This document shows, one piece after another, positions 4,636-37,105 of a stretch of 59,501 nucleotides of DNA. The stretch is taken from NCBI GenBank assembly GCA_019057375.1, contig DXJF01000094.1, forward strand, positions 1 through 59,501, written 5' to 3'. Source of the DNA: Candidatus Heimdallarchaeota archaeon. GTDB lineage: Archaea; Asgardarchaeota; Heimdallarchaeia; Heimdallarchaeales; Heimdallarchaeaceae. The position numbers and the translations under genes were made by a program. Within the stretch, counting starts at the first letter, position 1, and every line of letters begins with the position of its first letter. The notes beneath the pieces were generated by a model that was given only the letters and a program-made list of their open reading frames with translations, was not told the DNA's origin and did not search any database.

Positions 4636-5250
4636 ATGACAATTGATTTCAGAACTCTCCCGATCATTATACTGGCAGCTGGAGATTCTCAGCGAATGGG
4701 TATTCCAAAAGGACTTCTAGATTATCATGGAAAACCCTTTCTTAGTTATCAAATTGAGAGTCTGTTTGAAATAGGTTTTACTGATATTATAGTTGTTTCA
4801 GGAAAAGATACTACACTCTATCAAGAAAATATACCTGAGCTCAAAAAAACAACTATTATAGTGAACCCCCAACCTGAAAAGGGACCTTTTTCTTCGATAC
4901 AAAGTGGACTTTCAGGATTAGGTGATAAACATCAATCAGGTGTATTCATCTTACCTATTGATGTTCCCTGTCCAAGTAAAGAAGTTTGGGACCAATTAGC
5001 TGGAGAATTAAGTTCTTCTAATGCTAATGTATCTATTCCTGAATTCAACGGAAAAAGAGGTCATCCTGTTTTACTCTCTGATGAATTCAAAAAATATCTC
5101 CAGACTTGTAGTTCAGATTCACGTCTTGATTTTGAGATTCGCAAACAAAAAGAACTACAAAAAGCAAAGATTATATCTGTTAATGACAAAAATATCACAC
5201 TTAACCTCAACACACTTGAGGAATGGGAAGCATTTAAGGTGAAAAAATGA
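4636..5250 (+). CDS. mocA: Molybdenum cofactor cytidylyltransferase (MocA/YgfJ-like nucleotidyltransferase)
   Basis: ILAAGDSQRMGIPK nucleotidyltransferase motif, PIDVP and GHPVL; stop overlaps the start of the Mo-hydroxylase gene (ATGA). Confidence 0.85.
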   Translation: MTIDFRTLPIIILAAGDSQRMGIPKGLLDYHGKPFLSYQIESLFEIGFTDIIVVSGKDTTLYQENIPELKKTTIIVNPQPEKGPFSSIQSGLSGLGDKHQSGVFILPIDVPCPSKEVWDQLAGELSSSNANVSIPEFNGKRGHPVLLSDEFKKYLQTCSSDSRLDFEIRKQKELQKAKIISVNDKNITLNLNTLEEWEAFKVKK

Positions 5251-7880
5251 ATGTTACATTTACTCTCAATGGAAAAAAAGTAACTGCTGAGTACGAAGAA
5301 GGTATGAGTGTTCTTGATGTTCTCAGAGAAGTCTGTTTGATAAAAAGTTGTAAAGACGGATGTTCTGGACAAGGTTTTTGTGGTGCTTGTACTGTTCTAA
5401 TAAACGGTAAAGCTATGGTTTCTTGTAGACAAAAACCTGCATCTATTGAGGGAAAAGAAATTGTCACTGTTGAAGGTTTAGATTTAGTAGAGCAAGAAAT
5501 ACTATCAAAATCTTTAGTCAAAGAAGGAGCTGTTCAATGTGGTTTTTGCACTCCTGGGCTTTTGATAAGAATCAAGGGTTTCCTTGATCAACACCCAACT
5601 TCAACCAGAGAACAGAAAGCCAAAGCTATAACAGGAAATCTTTGTCGTTGTACAGGGTACCAGCGAATATTAGATGCAATGGAAACAGCTGAAGAAAATT
5701 GGCAAACAAAGAATCAGGATATTTCAGGTCCTCCTCGTAGAAACAAATTTTTTGGAGAACAATATGGTTTTGAGCGGGAATTTCAACCAAAAGAACATGG
5801 GGTTGGTAGCAGTACTCAGCGCTACCGCGGTGTAGATATGGCTCTAGGTAAGAAACCCTACATAGCTGATTTGGAAGTAGAGAATATGCTTCATGGAGCT
5901 TTGCTACTGAGTGAACATCCACGTGCAAAGGTCATAAATATAGATATTTCTCAAGCAAAATCAGCTTGTGGAGTTGTAAGGGTAATTACTGCAAAAGATG
6001 TTCCAGGTAAAAGAATGATAGGGTATATAATTCCTGATTGGCCAATATTTGTTGCAGAAGGCGAATCAACAAAATACGTAGGGGATGTTTTAGCTATGGT
6101 TGTTGCTGATTCAATGATTCATGCTAGGGCTGCTCTAGACAAAATAAAAGTTAAATATGAGGTTCTTGAACCAATAGACAATCCTGAGAAAGCATTGGCT
6201 AAAGATTCTATGAAAATACATGAGAAAGGAAATCTTTTAGGACATACTTTCTTTGGAAGAGGGAATGTTAATGAAGCATTAAACAATTCCAAGTATGTAA
6301 TAAAACAACAATTCAAAACACAACGCATTGAACATGCTTTTATGGAGGTTGAAAGCAGTCTTTCAATTCCAACAGCAACTGGTGTTCATGTATACAGTCA
6401 AGGACAAGGTGTACATGAAGATCAACGACAGATTGCTGAAGTATTAGGATTGAAGAATGAAGAAGTCATAGTAGAACTTGTCACCAACGGAGGAGCTTTT
6501 GGAGGAAAAGAAGATCTTTCATGCCAAGCTCAGACAGCTGTAGCTTCATTTTTACTAAAGAAACCTGTTAAGACTGTACTTACACGAGAACAATCCCTAC
6601 TTATTCATCCTAAACGTCATCCTATGATAATGAATTATGAAGTAGGTGCTAATGAAAATGGAAAACTTACAGCTGTTAGATTAAGACTCATCGCAGACTC
6701 TGGAGCTTATGCTTCAGTCGGAGCAAAAGTTGCTGAACGTGCAGCAGGACATTGTTGTGGCCCCTATTATGTTCCACATGTAGATATTGATGCGAAATCT
6801 GTATACACTAACAACCCTCCTTGTGGGGCGATGCGTGGATTTGGTGTTAATCAAACTTCTTTTGCAATTGAATCTTGCTTGAATATGATTGTTGAAAAAA
6901 TGAGGGGAGATGGAATTGAAATTGATGATTATGATATAAGAGAACGGAATATTCTCAGAGAAGGTCAAAGGTTTGCAACAGGACAAAAGATGACAAAAAC
7001 TGTTATTGGAATGCAAAAATGTCTTGATGCAGTAAAAGATGTTTATAAAAATTCAAAGGTTCCAACAGGTATAGCTTGTGGTATAAAAAATACAGGTATT
7101 GGCAATGGTCTTGAAGACACTGGAAGGGTGCTCATTAAAGTCCTTGAAGATGAACAGCTCGATATATTAACAGGTTTTACTGAAATGGGTCAAGGATTGT
7201 TTACAGTAATTACTCAAGTTGTTACTGAACTAACAGATATACCACCTGCACAAATGAATGTTAAGTCTATTAGTTATCCAACAACAAAATGTGGCATGAC
7301 TACTGCCTCAAGAGGTACTGCGCTGGATACTATGGCAGCTAAGATTGCTACAGAAAAACTTGCTTTAGCTCTTCAATCAAAGTCATTAAAAGATTTAACA
7401 GGTGAAGAATTCCATGGAGAATACATTACTAACTTCACTGTCAAACCAGGAACAAAAGTAGATAATCCTGTAACACACTTAGCATTTAGTTATGCAGTAC
7501 AAATGGCTTTTCTTGACGAAAAAGGTAATCTTAAGAAAATAATAGCAGCACATGATGTTGGAAAAGCAATTAACCCTATGGCATGCGCTGGTCAGTTTGA
7601 AGGGGGAGTTCATATGGGACTTGGACATACTCTCTCGGAAAGTTTTCCGACAACTAGAGGAGTACCAGATTCTTTGAGAATGAAGGATCTCCAAATAGTC
7701 AAAGCTAAAGATACTCCTGAGGTTGAAGTTATTTTAATTGAAGTGCCAGAAGAAATTGGAGGATTTGGTGCAAAAGGTGTTGGAGAGATAGGACTTGTTC
7801 CAACAGCTGGAGCAGTTGCAGGTGCTCTACACAAGTTAGATGGTAAAACTCGTTTTGAACTTCCAATAGCACGAAAATAA
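5247..7880 (+). CDS. Fused [2Fe-2S]/molybdopterin hydroxylase, selenium-dependent xanthine dehydrogenase (XdhAC/DOPDH) type
   Basis: CKDGCSGQGFCGAC, QCGFCTPG and CRCTGY Fe-S motifs fused to a Moco domain (GGAFGGKE, AMRGFG, EMGQG, KGVGEIG); no FAD domain. Selenium dependence is inferred from architecture only. Confidence 0.85.
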   Translation: MNVTFTLNGKKVTAEYEEGMSVLDVLREVCLIKSCKDGCSGQGFCGACTVLINGKAMVSCRQKPASIEGKEIVTVEGLDLVEQEILSKSLVKEGAVQCGFCTPGLLIRIKGFLDQHPTSTREQKAKAITGNLCRCTGYQRILDAMETAEENWQTKNQDISGPPRRNKFFGEQYGFEREFQPKEHGVGSSTQRYRGVDMALGKKPYIADLEVENMLHGALLLSEHPRAKVINIDISQAKSACGVVRVITAKDVPGKRMIGYIIPDWPIFVAEGESTKYVGDVLAMVVADSMIHARAALDKIKVKYEVLEPIDNPEKALAKDSMKIHEKGNLLGHTFFGRGNVNEALNNSKYVIKQQFKTQRIEHAFMEVESSLSIPTATGVHVYSQGQGVHEDQRQIAEVLGLKNEEVIVELVTNGGAFGGKEDLSCQAQTAVASFLLKKPVKTVLTREQSLLIHPKRHPMIMNYEVGANENGKLTAVRLRLIADSGAYASVGAKVAERAAGHCCGPYYVPHVDIDAKSVYTNNPPCGAMRGFGVNQTSFAIESCLNMIVEKMRGDGIEIDDYDIRERNILREGQRFATGQKMTKTVIGMQKCLDAVKDVYKNSKVPTGIACGIKNTGIGNGLEDTGRVLIKVLEDEQLDILTGFTEMGQGLFTVITQVVTELTDIPPAQMNVKSISYPTTKCGMTTASRGTALDTMAAKIATEKLALALQSKSLKDLTGEEFHGEYITNFTVKPGTKVDNPVTHLAFSYAVQMAFLDEKGNLKKIIAAHDVGKAINPMACAGQFEGGVHMGLGHTLSESFPTTRGVPDSLRMKDLQIVKAKDTPEVEVILIEVPEEIGGFGAKGVGEIGLVPTAGAVAGALHKLDGKTRFELPIARK

Positions 7881-7948: not shown

Positions 7949-8914
7949 TTAAGGAACAATTCTGGTTCCTGTTTCACCCTTTAAAGCCCTACCAATGTTT
8001 TCAGGACTAGTGATTAAAGCTTCTTTACCACCTTGTTCTAAAAATCCAACAATAGCTTTGATTTTTGGTTCCATAGATCCTTTTGCAAAATGAGTTCCTT
8101 CCTCTAGATACTTCTTTGCTTCAGCAACGGTAAGCTGATCCAAATCTATTTGATTAGGTTTACCGAAATTCAGGGCAACTTTTTCAACAGCGGTTGAAAT
8201 TAAAAGCATGTCTGCTTTTATTTTATTTGCTAGGAATGCAGATGCAAAATCTTTGTCAATTACTGCTGCAGTTCCCTTTACTCCTTGATCTGTCTCAATA
8301 ACTGGTATTCCTCCTCCACCTACAGTAATTGTGATTGTACCGGAATCGATTAGTGTTTTGATGGCTTCCAATTCCATAATTTCTACAGGTAATGGAGAAG
8401 GCACTACACGACGCCAACCTCGACCAGCATCTTCAACTACATTCCAACCTAATTCTTCTTTCCTTCGTTCCGCCTCTTCCCCTTCCATGAATGTACCAAT
8501 AGGTTTAGCAGGTGTCTGGAAAGCAGGATCATTTGAATCTACACGGACTTGTGTAATCACTGTCGTCACTGGTTTATCAATTCCTCTTTTTTTAAGCTCA
8601 TTTTGGATATTCTGCTGTAGGGAATAACCGATAGCGCCTTGACTGTCAGCACCGCAAACATCTAGGGGTAGTTCATGCATACCTTCCACCTTATGGGCAA
8701 TTTCACTTCGTCGTAAAATGAATCCAACCTGGGGTCCATTGCCATGTCCTATTGCAATATCCCAGCCAGCTTCAATCATATCTACTAGGTGAATTGCAGT
8801 TTCATGAGCAGCTTCATATTGATTTTGTACAGTTTGATGCTGCTTAGATTTGATGAGTGAGTTGCCTCCAATCGCAACAACCGCTACTTTTTTCTGTTCT
8901 GACATTCGTATCAC
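7949..8914 (-). CDS. arcC: Carbamate kinase (YqeA/ArcC); ATG at 8905 is the likely start
   Basis: VAIGGNSL, HGNGPQVG, KPIG, RRVVPSP, GGGGIPV, VIDKD and GSMEPK motifs. Confidence 0.97.
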   Translation of the reverse strand: MIRMSEQKKVAVVAIGGNSLIKSKQHQTVQNQYEAAHETAIHLVDMIEAGWDIAIGHGNGPQVGFILRRSEIAHKVEGMHELPLDVCGADSQGAIGYSLQQNIQNELKKRGIDKPVTTVITQVRVDSNDPAFQTPAKPIGTFMEGEEAERRKEELGWNVVEDAGRGWRRVVPSPLPVEIMELEAIKTLIDSGTITITVGGGGIPVIETDQGVKGTAAVIDKDFASAFLANKIKADMLLISTAVEKVALNFGKPNQIDLDQLTVAEAKKYLEEGTHFAKGSMEPKIKAIVGFLEQGGKEALITSPENIGRALKGETGTRIVP

Positions 8915-8938
8915 ATTCCTTATTTCATGTAGTTTAAA

Positions 8939-9335
8939 TTAATCACTAATATTTTTAGTGATTGTGATATATTTCGTTTTCTGATTAAGTGCATTAGATA
9001 TCAAATCTCCTATATCCTTTAATTCTTGATCCGAAAGCATTTCTTTTTTCTGAAAATCCTTAATCATTGATTATTACCTCCAAAATGTATCTTGATCAAA
9101 TTCTCTCTTCCAAATATGTTAATAGCATCTGCTTAAACATTTTTCCATGATACTGATCCTTCAATCTGTCTCCAATATATTGTTTAACAGCAATTCCAAT
9201 ATATTTTGTTCTATTATCTGTTTTTGGTGGTTCCCACGCAATAGCATATATATCTTCGCTATCTCCAAATCCTTCTTTCTCAGTTACTTCGTACCAATCA
9301 AAGGAACCTCTCCAGATAATTGTAAATTTCTTCAT
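8939..9335 (-). pseudogene. Fragmented GIY-YIG-like nuclease (79-aa ORF 9096-9335 plus 42-aa ORF 8939-9067)
   Basis: DIYAI-x11-KYIGIA-x5-DRL...H fits the GIY-YIG pattern. An alternative frame (ADAINIFGRENLIKIHFG) and a downstream mini-ORF (MIKDFQKKEMLSDQELKDI...) look like its continuation. Confidence 0.45.
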
Positions 9336-9704
9336 ACATTTGATTTTTTTTAATTTTCTTAAGATGTTGTAGCACCCTTTGAGTTTACAAATTATTTACA
9401 ATTGTATCAAGCCATGGTTTCTTTGAGTCTCGCAGGGTTTCTTAAATTATAATCGGAAACATATATGATGTTGCTAGATTTATAAAGGATGATTGTCATA
9501 CTAATATAGTAAAAAATTTATTACCAACAATCAAAATAAGTGATTAACTTATTAGGTTGAATGTATAATCTATAACCTGGACAATGTTATTAGATTAAAA
9601 TTCATCTCCCTATGGGAGTAACTGATTTGGACTGTAGTGGTTTTTTTTTACCAAATCGAAAACCAATCTTGCTTTTAAAAATAGTAAGGGAGGTGAACAA
9701 CAAA

Positions 9705-9857
9705 ATGAATAAAGTAAATAGGTCAAATGATGATAGATCTAACAGTATGAATTCTAATAATGCTGCATATCAAGCATCTATGAATAACAGATCTGATCAA
9801 CTAAATCCAAATAACGAGGAAAATCAGTCTTCAGAGGAAGCAGATGAAGAAGAATAA
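9705..9857 (+). CDS. Small Asn/Ser/acidic-rich protein (50 aa) with an internal NRS...NN repeat
   Basis: Strong SD agggaggtga at 9687-9696 before ATG 9705; MNKVNRSNDDRSNSMNSNNAAYQASMNNRSDQLNPNNEENQSSEEADEEE; followed by a T-tract. Confidence 0.65.
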   Translation: MNKVNRSNDDRSNSMNSNNAAYQASMNNRSDQLNPNNEENQSSEEADEEE

Positions 9858-10009
9858 AGCTATAGAAAGGATTTTTCTTTTTTTTCTTCTTTTACCTCAT
9901 ATGGTCAGGAAGGAAACTATCAAATGCCTGAACAAGACTTCTCTCTCTAAATTCTCTGATATGCTATATTAGATCATTTTCCTGTCTTGAAAGAAGTGTG
10001 TTCATTCTT

Positions 10010-10192
10010 TTAGAGAAGAGTGAATTTCTCTCTTTCTCTACAGAAAGCATTAGGACAAATAATGGGTTTAGAGGGAGGGTTCTCTTTATGAGAAAAGGTA
10101 ATCGTATCACCACAGTTCCCACAAGAATAAGAAGAGACAAACTTTGAAGATTGTTCTTCTTGTGAATCTATGAGGAGTTTCTCGTAGGACAT
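10010..10192 (-). CDS. Small zinc-finger-like protein (60 aa)
   Basis: From internal ATG 10192: CGNC...CPNAFC, a four-Cys pattern. Confidence 0.4.
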   Translation of the reverse strand: MSYEKLLIDSQEEQSSKFVSSYSCGNCGDTITFSHKENPPSKPIICPNAFCREREKFTLL

Positions 10193-10311
10193 GAGACAAA
10201 GAATACGATGTATTTGAGAGATAAAAGCATTTCTTGATTTTTGGTGTTTTATAATGTCGTTCAAGACAAAGTGCTGAAAGTAAAGTGTTCCAAGTAAGGA
10301 AATGATAAACC

Positions 10312-10509
10312 ATGGCGAAAATACACCATTACAGAGAAGGAAAGCTAGTAGTGGAAGAGGAGAAAGAAGAAGAGTATTCAGAATACAAACTAGACACAAT
10401 ATACATAGAATCGTTCAAGACGTTTTTTGCAACAATAGAAGAACAAACGACAGAATCAAGATGGATACCAAAGAAAGTGGTGTCGAAAGAATTAAAAATA
10501 ACGAAATAG
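10312..10509 (+). CDS. Hypothetical small acidic protein
   Basis: 65-aa ORF with purine-rich coding-like composition; no recognisable motif. Confidence 0.3.
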   Translation: MAKIHHYREGKLVVEEEKEEEYSEYKLDTIYIESFKTFFATIEEQTTESRWIPKKVVSKELKITK

Positions 10510-10650
10510 TACATCAAAGCATTGAAAGAGGGGAGATTAGAATGAGGGAAAAAAGAAAAGAAAACAAGTAAAATTAACAAATTATATGACAATAAACTTA
10601 TAACCAGATTAAAGATAAATTCAAAAAAGTTCTTTACTAGGTTCTAATTT

Positions 10651-10870
10651 ATGCGTAGTAGTGTTGGATAATAAACTTCAATCCATCTTCATACAAGATG
10701 GTAAAAGAAGAATGAAGAATGGTTCCTTGTTGTTGGATGGAAGGCCACAAAAAAAGAAAACAAAAATTATTATCGCAACTTTGGAATTGAAATAGCTTTC
10801 AGGTTAGTCAAGACTCTCCATATCTCTACCCCCTCTCGATACTCAGCAGTCCGTTTTTTATATCCCTACC
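10651..10870 (+). pseudogene. IS4-superfamily (ISH3-like) transposase remnant
   Basis: Own translation with in-frame stops: MRSSVG**TSIHLHTRW*KKNEEWFLVVGWKATKKENKNYYRNFGIEIAFRLVKTLHISTPSRYSAVRFLY. Y-x6-E-x6-K matches YREK spacing, with the Arg lost. Confidence 0.6.
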
Positions 10871-11156
10871 TCCGTTCTCATCGTTTTATAGAATGCTATG
10901 CTCCATTTATCTATCCTCTACCAATTCTTTACTACTTCCCTAATCTTCATTACCTTCTGTAAAACAGGTTCAATCACCTTTTATCAAATCTGTATATGTT
11001 TTCGGCATCTTCTAGAAGAAGGTGATACAGGTAGCACTCATTGAGGAAGTACTAAGTTGTAGATAAAGTTTAAATATGTAAATAAACCTCGTATAGGCAG
11101 TATACTGTTTGTAGAAAACAAAATTGAAAAACAGTATAGACGGAGGAAATTAAACT

Positions 11157-12290
11157 ATGAAAAAAAAACAATATAGATTAGCTTTTTTTGTTTTTTTTAC
11201 AATTGTATTTCTTAGTAGCACAATTCTCATTAAAGAAGTAAGAGCTACATCAACCACTATCCAGAAACCTACTAATGGTCAACAATTTAACAGTCTCTTA
11301 AATGGTGATTATATCACTTTCAAATTCATCATCGTTGGTTCATATCAATCATATAAAACATATATTGATGGACAGTTAGATTACTCTCTCCATCATGTAG
11401 GAGTAAATATTCAATATGATGCAAGGAACTTTATAGATAAGTACGGTAGAGGATTACATACTTTTACTGTTTCAGTTTCAGTCAGTGGGGGTCCTAGTCC
11501 TTTTAGCATAACTACTCAAAGTGTTGTTATGGATAGTGTATCATTCACAGTAGATCCACCCATGTGTCATTTCGTTGGTTTTGGATTTGATTTCGATGAT
11601 GAATATTCTTGGCAATATAGATGGAGAAGTAATATAGAACCATTTAGAGATATGCTTCTAAGCGATAGGGCGAAATACATCCCTGGTTATTTCGCTACTC
11701 ATTATGATTGGGACGATGATGATGTAATTAGTATATTAGATACTTTAGATACAAAAGAAAAACAAAAAGACATTGTAGTAGTTCTATTTTCCGCACATGG
11801 ACATGCTGTGCTTCCCCCACCAGATGCTGATGCGTGGACACATTCTCATACAACCACATGGTTTCATGAATTAGGGTGGACACCTTACTATAAGGGTGTT
11901 GCTGCTATCGAACTGAAAGGTTGGTTATTTGATTTAGAAACCGATAACTTAGTATATATTATGGATTGCTGCCATTCAGAAGGTTTTCTCTACGAAGGAC
12001 TAGATTTAACCAACAAAAAGCATGTGATGGTAGCTAGTGAGTGGGACGAATCTGCTTGGCATCAGCAAAAGAGTTATGATCCTAGTTGGTCACTAAGTGG
12101 TAGAATACTTTTTATGTCTAGTCCTTTTCTACGACATATGTGTATGGAGTTCTATTTTGATTGTTCTGATACAGACACAGCGTTTGATCATGCTTATAAT
12201 TGGATTATTACAAACCATCCAGAATGGGATCAACATCCAATGGATTTCAACGATTTGCAGACAGCGCTTTACTTATGTCACCCAACATAA
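11157..12290 (+). CDS. Secreted protein: N-terminal beta/Ig-like region plus clan CD (caspase/metacaspase-fold) peptidase domain
   Basis: Signal-peptide-like N-terminus; VVLFSAHG and YIMDCCHS His/Cys dyad motifs; SD ggagg upstream. Confidence 0.65.
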   Translation: MKKKQYRLAFFVFFTIVFLSSTILIKEVRATSTTIQKPTNGQQFNSLLNGDYITFKFIIVGSYQSYKTYIDGQLDYSLHHVGVNIQYDARNFIDKYGRGLHTFTVSVSVSGGPSPFSITTQSVVMDSVSFTVDPPMCHFVGFGFDFDDEYSWQYRWRSNIEPFRDMLLSDRAKYIPGYFATHYDWDDDDVISILDTLDTKEKQKDIVVVLFSAHGHAVLPPPDADAWTHSHTTTWFHELGWTPYYKGVAAIELKGWLFDLETDNLVYIMDCCHSEGFLYEGLDLTNKKHVMVASEWDESAWHQQKSYDPSWSLSGRILFMSSPFLRHMCMEFYFDCSDTDTAFDHAYNWIITNHPEWDQHPMDFNDLQTALYLCHPT

Positions 12291-12306
12291 ATAAGAAGGT
12301 TGAATA

Positions 12307-13356
12307 ATGAAAAAGAAAAGAACATCTCTCATTTGCTTGTTCTTGGTCTTACTTGTTTCTTTCTATGTTCCTAATATAAAACTAGTGAATAGTACAGATA
12401 TTCCATCTATTTACTCTTTAATTACGATAGAACTAAATGGATTGACAAAGGAGAATCTTACTGCTCAACTTTTAATTTTCAATGAAACCAGTCAAACTTA
12501 TGAAGAGAATGAAATATTAAAAGATGGAATTGTTGAGGATTTGAACTGGTTATCTCATCAAATCTCTGGTTTAGATGACATTTTAGTCCATAATTTTAAT
12601 GATACCGTGTTACCCGGTAAAGTAGACTTCTTGTTAGCAAATGTCTCTTATGAGGATAAAAGCGTGTATGAACAAATATCTAATATGATTAACTCTGATA
12701 ATAACCGTTGGTGGTACGTAGAGACAGTAGTTCCTTCAATTATCCCTGCAGATGGACCTATCTCTGGTTATGCTTTTGCAAATCAAGCGCCACTTGATCT
12801 CACAGAATTTTCGACATTTAATGAAAGCCACTCTACAGGTAATGTGACTATTTTAGACTTCCGATCAAAGGATGGGATTATAGCATCAATGTTCATAAAT
12901 GATGGAGAAAAATGGATAGAAAATAGCGAATTTCGTGAAATTCTTGTTTCTAGCCTTCTCTCACTAAAAAATATGATATTTGAAATTGATAATCTTAGCA
13001 TGACTTGGCCAGAATCAAATTGGGCTGAGGAAGGAGATTTGCCTCTTCTTAATCTTTCAGAACCACTAGTCTTTAATGAAACATATTCTTTTTATTCAGA
13101 ATGTTTTGATCTAGGAGTGATAGATATTAAAATCTATTATAAGTCTGGTCTCACTGAAGATGAAATGAAGATAGTTCATAAAATCTTTGACATGGCCATT
13201 GCAAATAATTGGTATGTTAATAATTTCATAGGGCTTGCTTATTGTGGTAATAATACTGACTTCCCATTTATAGTACTTGGTTTACCTACTCTTATTTTTG
13301 CTTTATTAATACTAAATAGGAAAAAAAAGAGAGTAAAAACTATTGAATTACAATAG
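12307..13356 (+). CDS. Exported protein with C-terminal membrane anchor, unknown function
   Basis: Signal-peptide-like N-terminus, acidic Asn-rich body, C-terminal TM helix followed by RKKKR; starts 16 nt after the peptidase gene. Confidence 0.75.
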   Translation: MKKKRTSLICLFLVLLVSFYVPNIKLVNSTDIPSIYSLITIELNGLTKENLTAQLLIFNETSQTYEENEILKDGIVEDLNWLSHQISGLDDILVHNFNDTVLPGKVDFLLANVSYEDKSVYEQISNMINSDNNRWWYVETVVPSIIPADGPISGYAFANQAPLDLTEFSTFNESHSTGNVTILDFRSKDGIIASMFINDGEKWIENSEFREILVSSLLSLKNMIFEIDNLSMTWPESNWAEEGDLPLLNLSEPLVFNETYSFYSECFDLGVIDIKIYYKSGLTEDEMKIVHKIFDMAIANNWYVNNFIGLAYCGNNTDFPFIVLGLPTLIFALLILNRKKKRVKTIELQ

Positions 13357-13426
13357 ATTTTTAGTATTATTCACCTTTTATTTTTTTTAATACGGGCATG
13401 TGCCAAAACTTGTTGGAGTGAAATAG

Positions 13427-13822
13427 AACTCACCTAAGAGGAAAAGTCACCCTAGTGGAAGCGGAAACAAATCCTTACGCAGTCGAGTGCATAAGTGGTG
13501 TTATCGTCTCTTTATCACTAAACTGAAGCACAAACTTACTCGTTATGGATTTGAATCCCATCGAGTGGTAGCAATTGGAGAAAGTTGGACCTCGAAACGA
13601 TGTTCAAGGTGTAATTCACTTAACACCACCCGTACAGGACAAGGACAGTTTAATTGCCATGATTGCAACTACGAACTGGATGCTGATATGAACGGGGCAA
13701 AGAACATAGGTAAAAGGTTGATCCAATATGCTTTGCAGCCAAAGCATGGTTATACCAAGATTCGAGATATACTAACTGATGAGTCCATCCGACATCACTG
13801 TTCAAGTGTCTCCAGCCTTTAG
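13427..13822 (+). pseudogene. tnpB: 5'-truncated IS200/IS605/IS607-type TnpB (RuvC C-terminal half and Zn ribbon)
   Basis: HKWCYRLFITKL, ESWTSKRCSRC, FNCHDC and DADMNGAKNIG; the frame is closed by a TAG at 13424-13426, so the RuvC-I/II region is missing. Confidence 0.85.
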
Positions 13823-14175
13823 GTCAATGGCTTAAAGATTCTGCAAAGAATGCATCGTCTCTTTAGATTCGATGTGCTAGGTCGAGAATCAGTCTTCTAA
13901 TTAGTTTGATAGGTTCGGTAATGAGACCCTTAAGCAAGAAATGATTCCTTTGAATAGATTTACAGCATTGTATGTTTTTGTTCCAGAAGACCAGTAACTG
14001 CTACACTATGAATTGATTATTTTTTCATTTTGTGCAATTATGATACTATGCCTACCCTTTATTACGCTGGTTTAGGAGGAGTCTTGAAAGGACCTTCTTA
14101 AAAACTGTCAAAGGTTTTTGGGGAGAGAATAACTCATGACTTTGCGTAGATGATATCTGTCCTTGACCTACTGCA
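13820..14175 (+). ncRNA. Putative structured RNA downstream of tnpB (omega/reRNA candidate)
   Basis: Hand-found helices: 13820-13827 with 14163-14170; attct-GCAA-agaat; 13852-13875; 13892-13898 with 13985-13991; a 13-bp stem at 14071-14102. Confidence 0.5.
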
Positions 14176-14342
14176 ATATCCGTGCTAATTGACGCTCTTT
14201 CTCCTTCCTTCCTTTTTTTCAATAGTGTTTTTCTACTTAGCAGATTTGTTGTAGATGTTACAGAAACGGTTGAAAATGGAATAATTGTATAGATATTGTA
14301 TTTTATAGATTAATAAAAAATATTTGAGGAGATTTGTATCCC

Positions 14343-15323
14343 CTAACGCATTGTCAGTGCCATAACAGCTTTTTGAGCGTGCATCCTATTTTCAGCCTGA
14401 TCAAATACCACTGATTGAGGTCCATCCATGACTTCACTTGTGACTTCTACATCTCGATCAGCGGGAAGCGGGTGCATGTAAATCGCATCCTTGTCAGCTA
14501 GAGCCATCTTCTTAGAATCAGTAATCCAATTCTTGTATCTATCTTGAATCTTCTTACCTTCAGTTGGATCCTGTGTTGTAAGTAGGGGTCCCCAAGACTT
14601 TGCGTAAACTATATCTGCGTCTTTGAAACCTTCTCCCATAGAGTCAACTACCTCAAATTTGGTGCCAAATTTATCAGCCTGTTCTCGAGCTTGTTTCATA
14701 ATCTCCGGCATCAACTTAAATTCAGGTGGATGTGCCAAGGTGACGTCCAGCCCAAAACGGGGCATCTGTAAAATTAAAGATTGCGGAACTGAAATTGGTT
14801 TGAGGTATGAGGAAGCATATGCCCACGAAACCACTATCTTCTTTCCTCTTAAATCTCTACCTTTTTTCTCAATGATAGTCATGATATCAGCTAAGCATTG
14901 GTGGGGATGGTAAATATCACACTGCATATTCAAAACTGGTGAACGGGAAGCTGATGCTACATTGTTTATGTACTTATTCCCAATTCCCCAATCGCAATGA
15001 CGAATAGCGATACCATCATAGTACCTTCCAAGGATTTCTCCTAGTTCTTTTTCAGTGTCTCCATGAGAAACCTGAGTTGTACGACTCTCCAAAAATGTGG
15101 CTTGTCCTCCCAGCTGAGCCATTCCTGACTCAAAAGAAGCTCGAGTGCGTGTGCTAGAAAAGAAAAATAACATACAAAGAGTCTTATCTAAAAGCAAAGC
15201 ATGATGTTCACCTAGAGCTCTTCGTTTCTTAAGATCCCAAGCTACATCTAAGATTGTCTCTACTTCTTCTTTTGTAAAATCAAGATCACCGATTAAATCG
15301 CGACCTCGTAAATCAGATTGCAT
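14343..15323 (-). CDS. ygeW: YgeW-family (knotted) carbamoyltransferase
   Basis: SSTRTR, HPHQ and HPLPADR; the segment SWAYASSYLKPISVPQSL...RFGLDVTLAHP...DADIVYAKSW matches YgeW rather than OTCase. Confidence 0.8.
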   Translation of the reverse strand: MQSDLRGRDLIGDLDFTKEEVETILDVAWDLKKRRALGEHHALLLDKTLCMLFFFSSTRTRASFESGMAQLGGQATFLESRTTQVSHGDTEKELGEILGRYYDGIAIRHCDWGIGNKYINNVASASRSPVLNMQCDIYHPHQCLADIMTIIEKKGRDLRGKKIVVSWAYASSYLKPISVPQSLILQMPRFGLDVTLAHPPEFKLMPEIMKQAREQADKFGTKFEVVDSMGEGFKDADIVYAKSWGPLLTTQDPTEGKKIQDRYKNWITDSKKMALADKDAIYMHPLPADRDVEVTSEVMDGPQSVVFDQAENRMHAQKAVMALTMR

Positions 15324-15332
15324 TGTGATCGA

Positions 15333-16286
15333 CTACTCCTCTGCGCCTAATACCAAAGCTATGAGTGCCATACGCATTACTACACCATAAAATCCTTCTT
15401 GCCAGTAACGTGCCCAACGTGTTTGATCTACATCAGGAGGAATGTCATCCATACGTGGTAAGGAGTGAAGTAAAATTGCATCGGATTTTGCTTTAGTTTC
15501 TAGTAGTTCTTTAGTGATTTGGAATTCGGGGGGTGTTAATGCAACATCACCATCTCTTTCATCACGTGATTTGGTGTAATCGGGTTGGACTACTGGTTCA
15601 ACTAGAATCACATCGGCATCAGCGATAACTTCACGAACATCACTAGCTTCAGTAAAGTTTAAGCTATTGCGTTTGAAATCTTCTTTATATTCTTCGGGCA
15701 TTGCCATATCTTCTGGTGCAACAAAAGTAATTGGACAGTCAAATTGAGTTAAAGCATGTCCAAGTGAATGCATTGTTCTCATTCTCATATCACCTACAGC
15801 TACCCATTTCAATCCATCAATTTTTCCTTTTTCACGAAGGACTGTATAGAGATCAGTAAGGATTTGAGTTGGATGTTCTCCCCAGCCGTCACCACCATTA
15901 ATAATGGGAACACTTACCCATTTAGCTGCTTCTTGCGGAGCACCCTTCTGGAAGTGTCGCATAACGATGACATCTCCGTAATTTTCGAGCATTTTGAAGG
16001 TATCCTTAATGGATTCCATATAAAAATCGCCTGCGCGAGTCATTTTAGCGTCAGAAAATCCTGTCACCTTTCCACCCAATCGAAGCATAGCTGATTCGTG
16101 GGCTAATCGAGTCCTTGTAGAAGGTTGGTAAAAAGCTGTAACCATTGTTTTCTCTTTCAATAGATCAACATTTTTCCTATTGCGAGCTATTGGTTCTAAT
16201 TTTTTAGCAACCTCAAAAATTCGTTCAAATTCGTGACGTTCAAAGTCTTTTAATGAAATTATGTCACGTCCTTTAAAACTTCTCAT
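15333..16286 (-). CDS. Aspartate-carbamoyltransferase-like paralogue with altered substrate pocket
   Basis: PSTRTR, INGGDG..EHPTQ, RTMHSL and HSLPR are present; the MTRxQxER and S..KGE aspartate-binding motifs are absent. Confidence 0.85.
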   Translation of the reverse strand: MRSFKGRDIISLKDFERHEFERIFEVAKKLEPIARNRKNVDLLKEKTMVTAFYQPSTRTRLAHESAMLRLGGKVTGFSDAKMTRAGDFYMESIKDTFKMLENYGDVIVMRHFQKGAPQEAAKWVSVPIINGGDGWGEHPTQILTDLYTVLREKGKIDGLKWVAVGDMRMRTMHSLGHALTQFDCPITFVAPEDMAMPEEYKEDFKRNSLNFTEASDVREVIADADVILVEPVVQPDYTKSRDERDGDVALTPPEFQITKELLETKAKSDAILLHSLPRMDDIPPDVDQTRWARYWQEGFYGVVMRMALIALVLGAEE

Positions 16287-16508: not shown

Positions 16509-17042
16509 TCAGGTTTCGATTACATCACCAACATATCTAAATTGTCCAGGCCAGAAAAAGAATGCTTTAGACCGATCATAATCTTTGGCTAAATGAGCAG
16601 CTACTACTTCACCAACAAACCACGTATGCGTCCCCCCTAGATCAAGAGTATGAACAACCTTACATTCTAGATTAACAGGACATTCTTTTATTAGATATGA
16701 ACTTATTTTTGAAGCTTTTACGGGTGTAAGACCTGTTGCTTTAAATTTATCTTCAACATCTCTACCGGAAATTTTTCCGATATACTTCACATCATCTATA
16801 AGTTCAGTTGTGGGGATATTTATAGAATAATCCTTTACTTCTTTTAATAGTTCAAATGAATATCTTTTGGGAACAATTCCAATCATAATTAAAGGAGGAT
16901 TATCAAATGAAACCATGCTAATTGCAGCTAGGGTTATAAGATTTTTACCAATACACCCTATAACAATAGGAAAACCTGGTAAGGATAAAATACCCTTCTT
17001 ACCTGAAATAATTTCTTTATCAGAATTGTCCATTTCATTCAT
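16509..17042 (-). CDS. Flavin reductase family protein (FMN-binding split barrel)
   Basis: VSFDNPPLIMIGI, IGKISGRDVEDKF, ECPVNLECKV and GTHTWFVGEV motifs. Confidence 0.9.
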   Translation of the reverse strand: MNEMDNSDKEIISGKKGILSLPGFPIVIGCIGKNLITLAAISMVSFDNPPLIMIGIVPKRYSFELLKEVKDYSINIPTTELIDDVKYIGKISGRDVEDKFKATGLTPVKASKISSYLIKECPVNLECKVVHTLDLGGTHTWFVGEVVAAHLAKDYDRSKAFFFWPGQFRYVGDVIET

Positions 17043-17148: not shown

Positions 17149-18480
17149 GTGAAAAAGGATTTCAGATATAGCATGAGCCTTGTAAATGGTTCTGTATACC
17201 GTAATGGAAAATTTTATCTCGAAGACATATATATATCTGATCAAAAAATTACTAAAATTGTTCCTTCTGGAAAAACCCTACTGTGCAAAAAAATTGTAGA
17301 CTGTACAAATAAACTAGTCCTCCCTGGTTTCATTGATCCACATGTTCATATCAATCTAGATTTGGGTGAATTCAAATCAAGTGATGATTATGAAAGTGCT
17401 TCAAAAGCTGCAGCATTCGGTGGAATTACTACTTTTATTGATTTTCTTGAACCAATTAATAATATTGATGAATTTGATAAGAAGCTAATCCAGAAGCATA
17501 AAGAAGCTGAGAATTCCTATATAGATTATTCTTTCCACACAACAGTTGGAAACTACAAAGATGATGTTGAAAGGCTCATTGAGAAAACACATGAAAATGG
17601 TATCCCTTCGATAAAACTATTTACCACTTATTCTGAATCAAATCGTAAAATATCACTTGCTAAACTTCAAGAGTTTCTAAGTAATTCTAGTAAAACAGAT
17701 ACTCTGATATTAATTCACGCAGAAAATGATGAGATCATACTCAATGCAAATGTAGAAGATACTGTGGAGAGTTATGAAAGTTCTAGACCTGCAATTGCTG
17801 AGATATCAGAGATAAAAAATATCGCTAAGATTGCAGCTGATTGTGAAGGAAAGCTCTATATCGTTCATGTCACATGTGGATCATCTATTGAATTTCTGAA
17901 AGAAAATTATCAAGAATTACTAGGCAAAAATATTTTCATAGAAAGTTGTCCTCAATATTTTCATCTAACAAAAGATCTGTTCAATCAAGAAAATGGTAAC
18001 ATTTTCCTTCTTGCTCCACCTTTACGTTCATCAGAAGAACAGAAGAAACTTAAGGATAATATCTCCTCAATACACTCTATAGGAACTGATCACTGTCCGT
18101 TTACTAAAGAAGAGAAAATGCGATACAAAGAAGCTAGCAAAATACCTAAAGGATTAGGTAGTTTGGAATTTAGTTTTTCACTGATGTATTATCTTTTTGG
18201 TAATGATATCATAGATAAATTTACTATAAATCCTGCAAAGATTCACAATCTTTATCCCAAGAAAGGAATAATCCAAGTTGGTTCTGATGCTGATTTCGTC
18301 ATATTTGATCCTGTAAAAACACAGATGATTGAACTAGGTCATTCCCAATCAGATTATAATCCATTTGAAAGTATGGTTACAAATGGAATGATAGAATCAA
18401 CAATTCTTCAAGGAAAATTCGTAGTTAAAAACAGGAAATTCGTTGGTGGAAAGAGAGGTCAATTTATTAAAAGAAAATAG
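17149..18480 (+). CDS. hyuA: Cyclic amidohydrolase (dihydropyrimidinase/hydantoinase, HyuA-like)
   Basis: PGFIDPHVH, AAAFGGITT, SIKLF (carboxylated Lys), IHAE, VHVT and GTDHCPF motifs. Confidence 0.85.
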   Translation: MKKDFRYSMSLVNGSVYRNGKFYLEDIYISDQKITKIVPSGKTLLCKKIVDCTNKLVLPGFIDPHVHINLDLGEFKSSDDYESASKAAAFGGITTFIDFLEPINNIDEFDKKLIQKHKEAENSYIDYSFHTTVGNYKDDVERLIEKTHENGIPSIKLFTTYSESNRKISLAKLQEFLSNSSKTDTLILIHAENDEIILNANVEDTVESYESSRPAIAEISEIKNIAKIAADCEGKLYIVHVTCGSSIEFLKENYQELLGKNIFIESCPQYFHLTKDLFNQENGNIFLLAPPLRSSEEQKKLKDNISSIHSIGTDHCPFTKEEKMRYKEASKIPKGLGSLEFSFSLMYYLFGNDIIDKFTINPAKIHNLYPKKGIIQVGSDADFVIFDPVKTQMIELGHSQSDYNPFESMVTNGMIESTILQGKFVVKNRKFVGGKRGQFIKRK

Positions 18481-35108: not shown

Positions 35109-35138
35109 AAGAAAAATAAAATCAAGAGAGATGCTAGT

Positions 35139-36544: not shown

Positions 36545-37105
36545 TTACAGACCCATCTGGAAGTAGATTCTGTCAATTAACCTTTCGAATGCAGAACTAA
36601 CATTTTGTCCTGTCTTAGCTGATGCTTCCACATATTCTACTTTTATTCCTCCCCATTCAGAGAGTACTTGTGCATAGGTCAATGCAGAGGTTTTGTTTAC
36701 CTGTACCTCTTCTGGAAGCTCTCCTCGCAGATCGCTTTTATTTCCTATAATCACCAATGGTATGAGCTTATTATCATTGTACTTGATCATCTCATTAATC
36801 CAGAAATCGATATTTGTAAAAGTATTTGGACGGGTTACGTCAAAAACAACCATAGCTCCGTAAGTGTTTGCATAATAAGCTCCTCTTACTTCAGAAAACC
36901 TAGGTTGCCCTGCTAAATCCCAAATTTGCAGACTGACAATATAATCCTCATATGGAACCTGCTTAACGCTGAAGTCAGCCCCAATTGTCATTAGATAATT
37001 TTCTCGAAAGCTTTTTCCTAGATAATTTCTCCTTAAGCTTGTTTTACCTACGGCTCCATCACCAATTAGTACTACTTTGAAAATTCTTCCTAGGTCTCCC
37101 GACAT
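36545..37105 (-). CDS. Rab-like small GTPase (Asgard eukaryotic signature protein)
   Basis: GDGAVGKT (G1), TIGADF (G2), WDLAGQ (G3), NKSD (G4) and SAK (G5); no C-terminal prenylation Cys. Confidence 0.93.
   Translation of the reverse strand: MSGDLGRIFKVVLIGDGAVGKTSLRRNYLGKSFRENYLMTIGADFSVKQVPYEDYIVSLQIWDLAGQPRFSEVRGAYYANTYGAMVVFDVTRPNTFTNIDFWINEMIKYNDNKLIPLVIIGNKSDLRGELPEEVQVNKTSALTYAQVLSEWGGIKVEYVEASAKTGQNVSSAFERLIDRIYFQMGL

What the first reader, a model, noticed from the sequence alone, without database searches (positions are those of the whole stretch)
14343..16286. Tandem transcarbamylases: an ATCase paralogue with a rebuilt pocket may phosphorolyse a second ureido group
The 317-aa protein keeps the carbamoyl-phosphate site (STRT, HPTQ, HSLPR) and the Arg167-equivalent in RTMHSL that binds the alpha-carboxylate in E. 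coli ATCase. It lacks the Lys84 loop (AGDFYMES instead of S..KGE) and Arg229, which binds the beta-carboxylate (LVEPVVQP instead of MTRxQ), so aspartate is an unlikely substrate. It lies 9 nt from a YgeW-type gene, originally upstream of carbamate kinase, with no pyrI. The pathway intermediate 2,3-diureidopropionate has two carbamoyl groups; bacteria remove one with YgeW and hydrolyse the other. Two transcarbamylases could capture both as carbamoyl phosphate, giving two ATP per purine instead of one. I know of no description of this activity.
Basis: partly seen in the sequence, partly recalled or inferred. Interest (0 to 1): 0.8.

Follow-up and report, generated by a model that had tools for sequence, protein, structure and literature searches.

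The report
Second carbamoyltransferase in archaeal urate breakdown
A Heimdall-group archaeon carries, inside a bacterial-type oxygen-free uric-acid breakdown cluster, an aspartate-carbamoyltransferase look-alike that cannot bind aspartate and probably converts a second urea-like group into carbamoyl phosphate and ATP, a reaction nobody has yet measured.

Summary
Window 15333-16286(-) encodes a 317-aa ATCase-like protein (TC1). It keeps every carbamoyl-phosphate residue and Arg167 but has lost Lys84, Arg229 and Gln231. Nine nt downstream lies a compact YgeW-type enzyme (TC2, 14343-15323). The genome has a normal pyrB-pyrI and an argF elsewhere.

TC1 is not a new family. It is the "HSLP" pseudo-ATCase that Barba et al. 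(2013) found next to a ygeW homologue in Nocardioides. They assigned it no function.

TC1-TC2-carbamate kinase is a fixed trio in 80 Heimdallarchaeota and Chloroflexota loci. It reached the archaea from Anaerolineales.

The predicted anticorrelation with ygeY is only partly true. In 401 evenly sampled Anaerolineae, 56 of 82 TC1 carriers still have YgeY, sometimes directly upstream of TC1. Without TC1, 118 of 124 TC2 carriers keep YgeY, and 25 of the 31 TC2 carriers that lack YgeY have TC1. YgeY is below cut-off in the window's genome and its 27 sampled closest relatives.

The best reading (about 0.55) is that TC1 phosphorolyses the ureido group that YgeY otherwise hydrolyses, giving up to two ATP per purine. 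This is unproven biochemically.

This scan has reached the same idea on other DNA several times.

The parts
15333..16286 (-). TC1: pseudo-ATCase (HSLP type), 317 aa. Predicted catabolic carbamoyltransferase for an alpha-ureido acid.
   Evidence: TIGR00670 scores 260.9 bits (cut-off 236.95), but NF002032 scores 226 against a cut-off of 263. The carbamoyl-phosphate residues and R167 are kept. K84, R229 and Q231 are lost.
14343..15323 (-). TC2: compact YgeW-type (knotted-type) carbamoyltransferase, 326 aa.
   Evidence: It is 35% identical to E. coli YgeW and has the proline-rich loop SWAYASSYLKPISVPQ. Q98, Q160, S200, K203 and K270 are kept. It scores below every NCBIfam cut-off.
7949..8914 (-). 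Carbamate kinase, the third member of the conserved TC1-TC2-CK trio.
   Evidence: NF009007 410 bits; TIGR00746 384 bits, cut-off 358. One search shows it next to TC2 in nearly all related loci long enough to show it.
8915..14342 (.). About 5.4 kb inserted between TC2 and CK. It holds two ORFs with no family match and a TnpB C-terminal fragment at 13487-13822.
   Evidence: The TC2-CK gap is about 9 nt in L038, about 0.55 kb in L022 and about 1.3 kb in L023.
16509..17042 (-). Flavin reductase-like protein upstream of TC1.
   Evidence: PF01613, 88.9 bits. It is found in the same place in L038, L045 and L046.
17149..18480 (+). HyuA-like cyclic amidohydrolase (hydantoinase/dihydropyrimidinase type), divergent from TC1.
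   Evidence: TIGR02033 304 bits, below the cut-off of 393. It has the same position in all Heimdall loci.
5247..7880 (+). XdhD-like selenium-dependent molybdenum hydroxylase.
   Evidence: TIGR03311 874 bits, cut-off 830.
4636..5250 (+). MocA/YgfJ-like cofactor nucleotidyltransferase.
26682..27998 (+). SsnA-like aminohydrolase.
   Evidence: NF005540 345 bits, below the cut-off of 444.
27999..29072 (+). UacX/PydA-like reductase with a DHO_dh barrel and 2x[4Fe-4S].
30290..31501 (+). Threonine-synthase-like PLP enzyme, a candidate replacement for YgeX.
   Evidence: Homologues follow CK in many Chloroflexota loci. YgeX was found in only 1 of 50 TC1-bearing genomes.
31498..36104 (+). Conventional xanthine dehydrogenase: FeS/FAD subunit, Mo subunit and XdhC.

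Best explanation
TC1 is a catabolic carbamoyltransferase of the lower part of the reductive (2,8-dioxopurine) uric-acid pathway.

The upstream enzymes are XdhD-like, UacX-like, SsnA-like and HyuA-like. Together they would turn urate into 2,3-diureidopropanoate. TC2, the YgeW equivalent, phosphorolyses one ureido group. TC1 phosphorolyses the other, the one that YgeY hydrolyses in E. coli. Carbamate kinase then converts both carbamoyl phosphates into ATP.

TC1 descends from ATCase. It keeps the alpha-carboxylate ligand Arg167 and has lost the beta-carboxylate ligands. Its most likely substrate is therefore an N-carbamoyl-alpha-amino acid, that is the 2-ureido group of 3-amino-2-ureidopropanoate or of diureidopropanoate itself.

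Shown here:
- the residue pattern of TC1;
- the conserved TC1-TC2-CK trio;
- the purine-catabolic context;
- the absence of a YgeY scoring above cut-off in this lineage;
- the statistical link between TC1 and loss of YgeY.

Inferred: the substrate, the regiochemistry, the direction of the reaction and the ATP yield.
For: 1. Active site. All carbamoyl-phosphate ligands and R167 are invariant in 81 family members. K84, R229, Q231, E50 and R234 are replaced.

2. TC1 is not the housekeeping enzyme. A canonical pyrB-pyrI and an argF lie on other contigs.

3. Synteny. TC1-TC2-CK runs in the same order and on the same strand in essentially all of 80 related loci that are long enough to show it.

4. 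Pathway context. The window holds XdhD-, SsnA-, UacX-, HyuA- and XDH-like genes. Of 50 TC1-bearing genomes, 49 have an SsnA-type hit and 48 a hydantoinase-type hit.

5. YgeY.
- The own genome's best match scores 143 bits against a cut-off of 321.5 and is an ArgE/DapE-type protein.
- None of the 27 genomes sampled from the TC1 clade that contains the window has a hit above cut-off.
- Among 401 evenly drawn Anaerolineae, 118 of 124 TC2+/TC1- genomes have YgeY against 56 of 82 TC1+ genomes (Fisher odds ratio 0.11, p = 2.6e-7, not corrected for phylogeny).
- 25 of the 31 TC2+ genomes without YgeY carry TC1.
- On a TC1 tree the YgeY state changes at least 12 times from a YgeY-present root.

6. Operon series.
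- GntR-YgeY-TC2-CK where TC1 is absent; YgeY-TC2 in 5 of 5 examined, CK seen in 4 and GntR in 1.
- Ade-GntR-YgeY-TC1-TC2-CK, with TC1 inserted between YgeY and TC2 (3 of 3).
- GntR-TC1-TC2-CK, and the Heimdall form.

7. Chemistry known from the literature. YgeW plus YqeA make ATP from diureidopropanoate, and YgeY hydrolyses the remaining ureido group (bioRxiv 10.1101/2025.04.24.650524, 10.1101/2025.05.19.654654; PMC12990295).
Against: - No activity has been measured for any member of this subfamily.
- Two thirds of TC1-bearing Anaerolineae keep YgeY, in the operons examined in the same operon. TC1 did not arise as a replacement, and a co-expressed hydrolase would compete with it.
- The TC1/YgeY association is not corrected for phylogeny. 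The genomes are MAGs of unknown completeness, and the own genome is 89% complete.
- The own genome has unlinked CN-hydrolases and Amidohydro_3 proteins that could hydrolyse a ureido group.
- The SsnA- and HyuA-like proteins of the window score below the curated cut-offs. The upstream pathway in the archaeon is therefore assigned at family level only.
- If YgeW makes albizziin, as Li et al. report, the remaining group is a 3-ureido group. That fits an ATCase-type pocket less well.
Confidence: 0.55

Rival explanations
1. TC1 phosphorolyses a different ureido compound that enters the same operon's metabolism. Candidates are allantoate or ureidoglycine (as UGTCase does), ureidomethyl-hydantoin before ring opening, or another N-carbamoyl amino acid from purine or nucleoside breakdown. 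On this reading YgeY and TC1 are not alternatives for one step.
For: - YgeY, TC1 and TC2 coexist in one operon in the genomes examined.
- The related pseudo-ATCase Rxyl_2847 acts on allantoate/ureidoglycine (PMC4016543).
- Chloroflexota clusters also hold 8-oxoguanine deaminase, adenine deaminase, a cytosine-deaminase-like protein and a nucleoside-type ABC transporter.
Against: - No uricase, allantoinase or allantoicase lies in these clusters.
- TC1 differs from UGTCase in the 80s loop, the 240s loop and the HxLP motif.
- The reductive pathway offers only two carbamoyl units per purine.
- YgeY is missing almost only where TC1 is present, which argues for overlapping function.
Confidence: 0.2
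2. TC1 and TC2 act in parallel rather than in sequence. Each removes the same kind of ureido group, but from different regio- or stereoisomers. One example is the products of the two ring-opening routes, ureidomethyl-hydantoin against 5-ureido-dihydrouracil. Another is the D against the L forms. A hydrolase would still be needed for the last ureido group.
For: - SsnA and HyuA are reported to handle two isomeric intermediates (10.1101/2025.05.19.654654).
- The two 2025 studies disagree on which ureido group YgeW removes (PMC12990295).
- Many TC1 genomes keep YgeY.
Against: - Both ring-opening routes converge on the same diureidopropanoate.
- The genomes of the window's clade have no YgeY above cut-off and no carbamoylase-type M20 enzyme was found in the own genome, so something must remove the second group.
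- TC1 and TC2 come from the two most distant branches of the family, with different pocket architectures.
Confidence: 0.1
3. TC1 is a non-catalytic or regulatory partner of TC2, for example a hetero-oligomer scaffold, and not an enzyme with its own substrate.
For: - The two genes are tightly coupled, 9 nt apart in the window.
- TC2 lacks the extra N- and C-terminal helices of E. coli YgeW.
- Pseudo-enzyme partners are known in pyrimidine biosynthesis complexes (general knowledge).
Against: - Every carbamoyl-phosphate ligand and the HxLP cis-proline motif are invariant.
- TC2-type enzymes work without TC1 in 124 of 201 sampled genomes.
- The degree of conservation, 148 of 317 positions invariant, fits an active site under selection.
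Confidence: 0.06
4. TC1 is a genuine second aspartate carbamoyltransferase, as automatic annotation says.
For: TIGR00670 scores 260.9 bits, above its cut-off of 236.95. Public records name its homologues aspartate carbamoyltransferase.
Against: - The RxQxER motif and Lys84, which define aspartate binding, are absent (PMC4581275).
- NF002032 scores below its cut-off.
- A canonical pyrB-pyrI exists elsewhere.
- The context is catabolic, with carbamate kinase.
Confidence: 0.02

Closest known systems
Nocardioides sp. JS614 pseudo-ATCase A1SH59 ('ATC_III_HSLP', Barba et al. 2013, PMC4016543)
   Same: - It shares the signature blocks read in the paper's supplementary alignment: AFYQPSTRTR, MTRAG.FYQES, GDMRMRTMHS, IYMEPVVQ.DYT and LHSLPRM.
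- It has the same neighbourhood: adjacent to a ygeW homologue, then xdhABC and hyuA.
- It is likewise a paralogue of a genuine pyrB.
   Different: - No function was proposed for that subgroup, and only one organism was known.
- Here the family is shown to be common. It occurs in 82 of 401 sampled Anaerolineae and in Heimdallarchaeota, tied to carbamate kinase and linked to loss of YgeY.
- I could not compute percent identity because the sequence is held only as paper text.
Ureidoglycine carbamoyltransferase (UGTCase, Rubrobacter xylanophilus Rxyl_2847/Q1AS69)
   Same: - It is an ATCase-branch paralogue with an intact carbamoyl-phosphate site and no RxQ motif.
- It lies next to a carbamate kinase in a purine-degradation cluster.
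- It removes one of two ureido groups of a diureido acid (allantoate) by phosphorolysis.
   Different: - UGTCase keeps an ATCase-like 80s loop with Lys (SSSAAKEES), has LPGCSAP in the 240s loop and HTLP. TC1 has TRAGDFY.ES, EPVVQPD and HSLP.
- UGTCase belongs to the oxidative (uricase/allantoinase) route. TC1 sits with XdhD, SsnA and HyuA of the reductive route.
E. coli / Clostridium sporogenes YgeW-YgeY-YqeA module of the reductive urate (2,8-dioxopurine) pathway
   Same: - The task is the same: removing the two ureido groups of 2,3-diureidopropanoate, with carbamate kinase making ATP.
- TC2 is the YgeW counterpart, and the upstream enzymes are of the same families.
   Different: - E. coli uses one phosphorolysis and one hydrolysis (YgeY), then YgeX.
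- The window has two carbamoyltransferases, no YgeY or YgeX above cut-off, a UacX-type reductase instead of YgfK, and a ThrC-like PLP enzyme.
Aspartate carbamoyltransferase catalytic chain (PyrB; closest solved structure Pyrococcus abyssi 1ML4)
   Same: - Same fold and the same carbamoyl-phosphate site.
- 36.6% identity to E. coli PyrB. Best PDB match by sequence is 1ML4, E = 5e-72.
   Different: The aspartate ligands K84, R229 and Q231 and the domain-closure pair E50/R234 are replaced. There is no PyrI partner and the context is catabolic.

Membership tests
Aspartate carbamoyltransferase (PyrB) | Carbamoyl-phosphate site: SxRT, R105, HPxQ, HxLP | tested here: met
   STRT, R in VMRHF, HPTQ and HSLP (P266 changed to S).
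Aspartate carbamoyltransferase (PyrB) | RxQxER motif of the 240s loop (R229, Q231) that binds the aspartate beta-carboxylate (PMC4581275) | tested here: not met
   the aligned residues are P-V-V-Q-P-D. This is invariant in the family.
Aspartate carbamoyltransferase (PyrB) | 80s loop with Ser80/Lys84 from the neighbouring chain | tested here: not met
   TRAGDFY(M/Q)ES replaces S..KKGE.
Aspartate carbamoyltransferase (PyrB) | Curated HMM cut-offs | tested here: inconclusive
   TIGR00670 scores 260.9, above 236.95. NF002032 scores 226.2, below 263. The genome's true PyrB scores 346.6 and 305.4.
Pseudo-ATCase, Nocardioides/HSLP subgroup (Barba 2013) | HSLP in place of HPLP, and loss of RxQ | tested here: met
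   Note that the rows of the paper's Table 1 and its subgroup numbers do not line up. I went by the labels of the supplementary tree and by the alignment.
Pseudo-ATCase, Nocardioides/HSLP subgroup (Barba 2013) | Gene adjacent to a ygeW homologue, with xdh and hyuA nearby | tested here: met
Pseudo-ATCase, Nocardioides/HSLP subgroup (Barba 2013) | Monophyly with A1SH59 in a tree | not tested
   The A1SH59 sequence is available only as text in the paper's supplement. The shared signature blocks were read by eye.
Ureidoglycine carbamoyltransferase (UGTCase) | H(T/S)LP motif | tested here: met
   HSLP.
Ureidoglycine carbamoyltransferase (UGTCase) | 80s loop Ser/Lys, 240s loop G-x-[SC], and a uricase/allantoinase context | tested here: not met
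   No uricase or allantoinase equivalog is in the window.
YgeW (YTCase), for the neighbour TC2 | Proline-rich (knot) loop and proposed substrate residues Q98, Q160, S200, K203, K270 | tested here: met
   D124 is Cys in TC2.
YgeW (YTCase), for the neighbour TC2 | Extra N- and C-terminal helices, long 240s loop, and the curated HMM cut-off | tested here: not met
   (326 aa against 396 aa, with gaps at these places). (210 bits against 453; 203 against 500).
Catabolic transcarbamylase working with carbamate kinase | Phosphorolysis of a ureido compound and ATP formation | not testable with these tools
   Only the conserved gene linkage with carbamate kinase could be shown.

The most novel reading that the evidence does not exclude
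TC1 is a 2,3-diaminopropanoate N-alpha-carbamoyltransferase working in reverse, an activity not yet in the enzyme catalogue. Together with the YgeW-type TC2 it turns both ureido groups of diureidopropanoate into carbamoyl phosphate. That doubles the substrate-level ATP yield of anaerobic urate fermentation. Its ATCase ancestry would also favour the Liu et al. order of ureido cleavage (3-ureido first, 2-ureido second). Heimdall archaea acquired this energy module from Anaerolineales.
Probability: 0.45. Interest if true: 0.7.

Novelty: new variant of a known kind. Interest (0 to 1): 0.6.

Why it matters
The reductive urate pathway was solved only in 2025, and two points are still open. One is which ureido group is cleaved first. 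The other is how much energy the pathway yields.

A second carbamoyltransferase derived from ATCase, whose presence makes the hydrolase YgeY dispensable, would show that some anaerobes conserve both carbamoyl groups as ATP. It would also give a direct enzymological handle on the regiochemistry.

There is a practical side. Hundreds of public records call this protein aspartate carbamoyltransferase, which inflates pyrimidine-biosynthesis calls in Chloroflexota and Asgard MAGs.

The cluster also shows that a pathway described as restricted to bacteria is present in Heimdall-group archaea. Its ATP-yielding cassette is 90-93% identical in protein sequence to Anaerolineales versions, which points to recent cross-domain transfer.

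Tried and rejected
- I asked whether TC1 is the only pyrB. It is not: pyrB-pyrI is on C57 and argF on C65.

- I tested strict TC1/YgeY anticorrelation. It fails: 12 of 50 and then 56 of 82 TC1 genomes have YgeY. This was replaced by the weaker finding that YgeY loss is nearly confined to TC1 carriers.

- I considered a beta-alanine (pyrimidine-catabolic) transcarbamylase. This is unlikely. That substrate keeps only the carboxylate equivalent to aspartate's beta-carboxylate, whose ligands are the ones lost, whereas the alpha-carboxylate ligand R167 is kept.

- I looked at whether the wider 'AGD-loop' pseudo-ATCases at 43-52% identity share the context. They do not: there is no carbamate kinase or YgeW-type neighbour. 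The function inferred here applies only to the HSLP/EPVVQPD subfamily.

- Cluster look-up of representative proteins gave no organism names.

- One look-up by exact protein found nothing.

- My first tree of the even sample picked wrong reading frames for some rows. I redid it by choosing frames by similarity.

- The careful IQ-TREE search did not finish, so the quick tree was used.

- I did not run structure prediction. The tools return no coordinates, so the pocket could not have been inspected.
Full report
**What is there**

On the minus strand of the window lie two tightly coupled genes:
- TC1 at 15333-16286, 317 aa.
- TC2 at 14343-15323, 326 aa, 9 nt downstream of TC1.

Both carry the two Pfam domains of the aspartate/ornithine carbamoyltransferase family.

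TC1 scores just above the older TIGRFAM ATCase cut-off (260.9 against 236.95). It scores below the NF002032 cut-off (226 against 263). TC2 is below every curated cut-off: OTCase 253 of 306, AOTCase 247 of 288, YgeW 210 of 453.

The genome is 3.47 Mb in 159 contigs, 89% complete and 33% G+C. It holds four members of the family. The other two are a canonical pyrB followed by pyrI on contig C57 and an argF on C65. TC1 is therefore a paralogue and not the housekeeping ATCase.

**Checking the residue claims**

I aligned TC1 with E. coli PyrB, with the genome's own PyrB and with about 45 relatives.

| | Residues (E. coli numbering) |
|---|---|
| Kept | S52, T53, R54, T55, R105, H134, Q137, R167, L267 |
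| Changed | K84 to an aromatic residue in the loop TRAGDFY(M/Q)ES; R229 to P; Q231 to V; E50 to Q; R234 to D; P266 to S |

By the criteria of Shi et al. (PMC4581275) the RxQxER motif and Lys84 are what define aspartate recognition. Both are gone, so TC1 is not filed as an ATCase.

The family is under strong constraint. 148 of 317 positions are invariant in 81 sequences, including all of the motifs above. This argues for a working active site.

TC2 is 35% identical to E. coli YgeW. It keeps the proline-rich knot loop and the proposed substrate residues Q98, Q160, S200, K203 and K270. It lacks the terminal helices and the long 240s insert of YgeW.

**Context in the window**

| Coordinates | Gene |
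|---|---|
| 4636-5250 | MocA-like |
| 5247-7880 | XdhD-like selenium-dependent hydroxylase (874 bits, above cut-off) |
| 7949-8914 (-) | carbamate kinase |
| 16509-17042 (-) | flavin reductase |
| 17149-18480 | HyuA-like hydantoinase |
| 26682-27998 | SsnA-like aminohydrolase |
| 27999-29072 | PydA/UacX-like reductase |
| 30290-31501 | threonine-synthase-like PLP enzyme |
| 31498-36104 | conventional xanthine dehydrogenase with XdhC |

This is the gene set of the reductive, or 2,8-dioxopurine, uric-acid pathway described in 2025. That pathway runs through these steps:
1. XdhD reduces urate.
2. YgfK or UacX reduces the ring.
3. SsnA and HyuA open the two rings, giving 2,3-diureidopropanoate.
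4. YgeW removes one ureido group as carbamoyl phosphate.
5. YgeY hydrolyses the other ureido group.
6. YgeX deaminates diaminopropanoate to pyruvate.
7. YqeA makes ATP from the carbamoyl phosphate.

The own genome has no YgeY, YgeX or YgfK above cut-off. The best YgeY-like hit is an unlinked ArgE/DapE-type protein.

One caveat applies. The SsnA- and HyuA-like proteins of the window score below their curated cut-offs, so the upstream steps are assigned at family level.

**What is already known about this protein**

Barba et al. (2013, PMC4016543) described 'pseudo-ATCases'. One subgroup, then known only from Nocardioides sp. JS614, lies next to a ygeW homologue, xdhABC and hyuA. No function was proposed for it.

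In the paper's supplementary alignment that protein, A1SH59, is labelled ATC_III_HSLP. It shows the same signature blocks as TC1: the TRAG.FYQES loop, GDMRMRTMHS, MEPVVQ.DYT and LHSLPRM. TC1 is thus a member of that described but uncharacterised subgroup.

The one characterised pseudo-ATCase is the ureidoglycine carbamoyltransferase Rxyl_2847. It differs from TC1 in the 80s loop (Lys kept), in the 240s loop and in its HTLP motif.

I found no paper assigning a role to the HSLP subgroup in the reductive pathway. No member has a solved structure. The best PDB match by sequence is the Pyrococcus abyssi ATCase.

More distant pseudo-ATCases with a similar 80s loop (43-52% identity) sit in unrelated, kinase-free contexts. 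The inference below therefore applies only to this subfamily.

**Distribution and origin**

- Homologues at 75-98% identity occur in Heimdallarchaeota MAGs and, far more widely, in Chloroflexota (Anaerolineales, Caldilineae).
- In 80 loci the order TC1-TC2-CK is essentially invariant.
- The Heimdall loci read ADH, HyuA(-), [flavin reductase], TC1, TC2, CK, XdhD(-), MocA(-).
- The window differs by about 5.4 kb inserted between TC2 and CK. The insert holds two ORFs without family matches and a TnpB fragment.
- In a quick maximum-likelihood tree the Heimdall sequences nest deep inside Anaerolineales, in a clade of 37 sequences with SH-aLRT support of 100.
- TC1, TC2 and CK have 40-41.5% G+C and mostly CGN arginine codons. 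The genome has 33% G+C and its neighbouring genes favour AGR. The bacterial homologues have 47-63% G+C.

The cassette was therefore imported from Chloroflexota into the archaea.

**Testing the YgeY prediction**

*Fifty TC1-bearing genomes*:

| Marker | Genomes with it |
|---|---|
| SsnA-type hit | 49 |
| Hydantoinase-type hit | 48 |
| YgeX | 1 |
| YgeY above cut-off | 12 |

None of the 27 genomes sampled from the window's clade has YgeY above cut-off.

*An even sample of 401 Anaerolineae-class genomes*:

| Group | Count |
|---|---|
| TC1 present | 82 |
| TC2-type enzyme present | 201 |
| YgeY present (E <= 1e-90; 304 above the curated cut-off) | 306 |
| TC1 carriers that also have YgeY | 56 of 82 |
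| TC2 carriers without TC1 that have YgeY | 118 of 124 |
| TC2 carriers lacking YgeY that have TC1 | 25 of 31 |

Strict anticorrelation therefore fails. The weaker pattern is strong, with an odds ratio of 0.11 and p = 2.6e-7, not corrected for phylogeny. One unpublished genome, G390, is counted among the 118. Without it the figure is 117 of 123.

On a tree of 78 TC1 sequences the inferred root state is 'YgeY present'. The state changes at least 12 times, against a mean of 22 and a minimum of 16 with shuffled labels. The losses are thus clustered but repeated.

*Operon maps* give a series:
- Type I, no TC1: (GntR)-YgeY-TC2-CK (YgeY-TC2 in 5 of 5 examined; CK seen in 4, GntR in 1).
- Type II: Ade-GntR-YgeY-TC1-TC2-CK, with TC1 exactly between YgeY and TC2 (3 of 3).
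- Type III: GntR-TC1-TC2-CK in the window's clade, and the Heimdall arrangement.

**Interpretation**

TC2 is the ordinary YgeW counterpart of this bacterial class and works with YgeY in most genomes. TC1 is an add-on. Once it is present, YgeY is often missing. The simplest account is that TC1 can do by phosphorolysis what YgeY does by hydrolysis. In lineages without YgeY, including this archaeon, both carbamoyl groups would then pass through carbamate kinase.

TC1 keeps the alpha-carboxylate ligand of ATCase and has lost the two cationic ligands of the beta-carboxylate. The family also shows conserved acidic residues nearby: Glu in VEP and Asp in AGD and QPD. I therefore favour an N-carbamoyl-alpha-amino acid with a neutral or cationic side chain. 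That means the 2-ureido group of 3-amino-2-ureidopropanoate, or of diureidopropanoate. This fits the order proposed by Liu et al. (YgeW removes the 3-ureido group, YgeY the 2-ureido group) better than that of Li et al. It is inference from family logic, not a result.

**Weak points**

- No biochemistry exists for this subfamily.
- TC1 coexists with YgeY in one operon in two thirds of carriers. Its original role may therefore be different or only partly overlapping.
- The genomes are MAGs of unknown completeness.
- The own genome has unlinked CN-hydrolases and Amidohydro_3 proteins that could supply a hydrolytic route. No hydantoinase-type carbamoylase was found.

**Earlier notes of this scan**

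Earlier notes of this scan reached the two-transcarbamylase idea on other genomes several times. They are not independent evidence.
- the even-sample contingency table;
- the repeated-loss pattern on the TC1 tree;
- the three-stage operon series;
- the finding that coexistence with YgeY is the commoner state.

**Verdict**

The protein is a known but uncharacterised kind, and the predicted activity is new.

Noticed in passing
window 30290-31501; L017:12090-13319; L104:13708-14964: A threonine-synthase-like PLP enzyme travels with TC1-TC2-CK in many Chloroflexota loci and is in the window's cluster. The known terminal enzyme YgeX was found in only 1 of 50 TC1-bearing genomes. A second, CysK-like PLP enzyme of 459-486 aa is also linked in the Chloroflexota loci examined. 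The end of the pathway may differ from that of E. coli.
   Followed up: partly
window 14343-16286 and 7949-8914, against L028-L057: TC1 is 85-93% identical in protein sequence between Heimdallarchaeota and Anaerolineales; TC2 and CK are 80-92% identical in most of these loci. The three genes have higher G+C and CGN arginine codons in the archaeon. This points to recent cross-domain transfer of an ATP-yielding cassette. The flanking HyuA and XdhD genes are not shared with the bacterial loci.
   Followed up: partly
window 8915-14342: About 5.4 kb is inserted between TC2 and the carbamate kinase. It holds two ORFs (11157-12290 and 12307-13356) with no Pfam or NCBIfam match and a TnpB C-terminal fragment (13487-13822). 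Related Heimdall MAGs have gaps of about 9 nt, 0.55 kb and 1.3 kb at the same junction, so this spot takes insertions repeatedly.
   Followed up: partly
window 36545-37105: A Ras-family small GTPase (PF00071, 153 bits) lies on the same contig. This fits an Asgard (Heimdall-group) host and argues against the cluster being a mis-binned bacterial contig.
   Followed up: no
L020:1184-1555 and 2852-3298; L104:11068-11448: Small genes of the '23S rRNA intervening sequence protein' family (PF05635) are inserted between TC1 and TC2, and between TC2 and CK, in some Anaerolineae operons.
   Followed up: no
L047, L068: Near-identical TC1-TC2-CK cassettes sit in MAGs labelled Nitrosomonadaceae and Sulfomarinibacteraceae (Acidobacteriota). 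Either the cassette has been transferred further or the contigs were mis-binned.
   Followed up: no
PMC4016543, Table 1 against supplementary files 5-8: The motif rows of the paper's Table 1 do not line up with the subgroup numbers used in its text. By the supplementary tree labels and alignment, the marine group is HPLA, the UGTCase group is H[TS]LP with G-x-[SC], and Nocardioides is HSLP with P-V-V.
   Followed up: yes
G000:C143:4825-8134: A CN-hydrolase gene and an Amidohydro_3 gene lie close together on another contig of the own genome. This is a possible unlinked hydrolytic route for ureido compounds.
   Followed up: no
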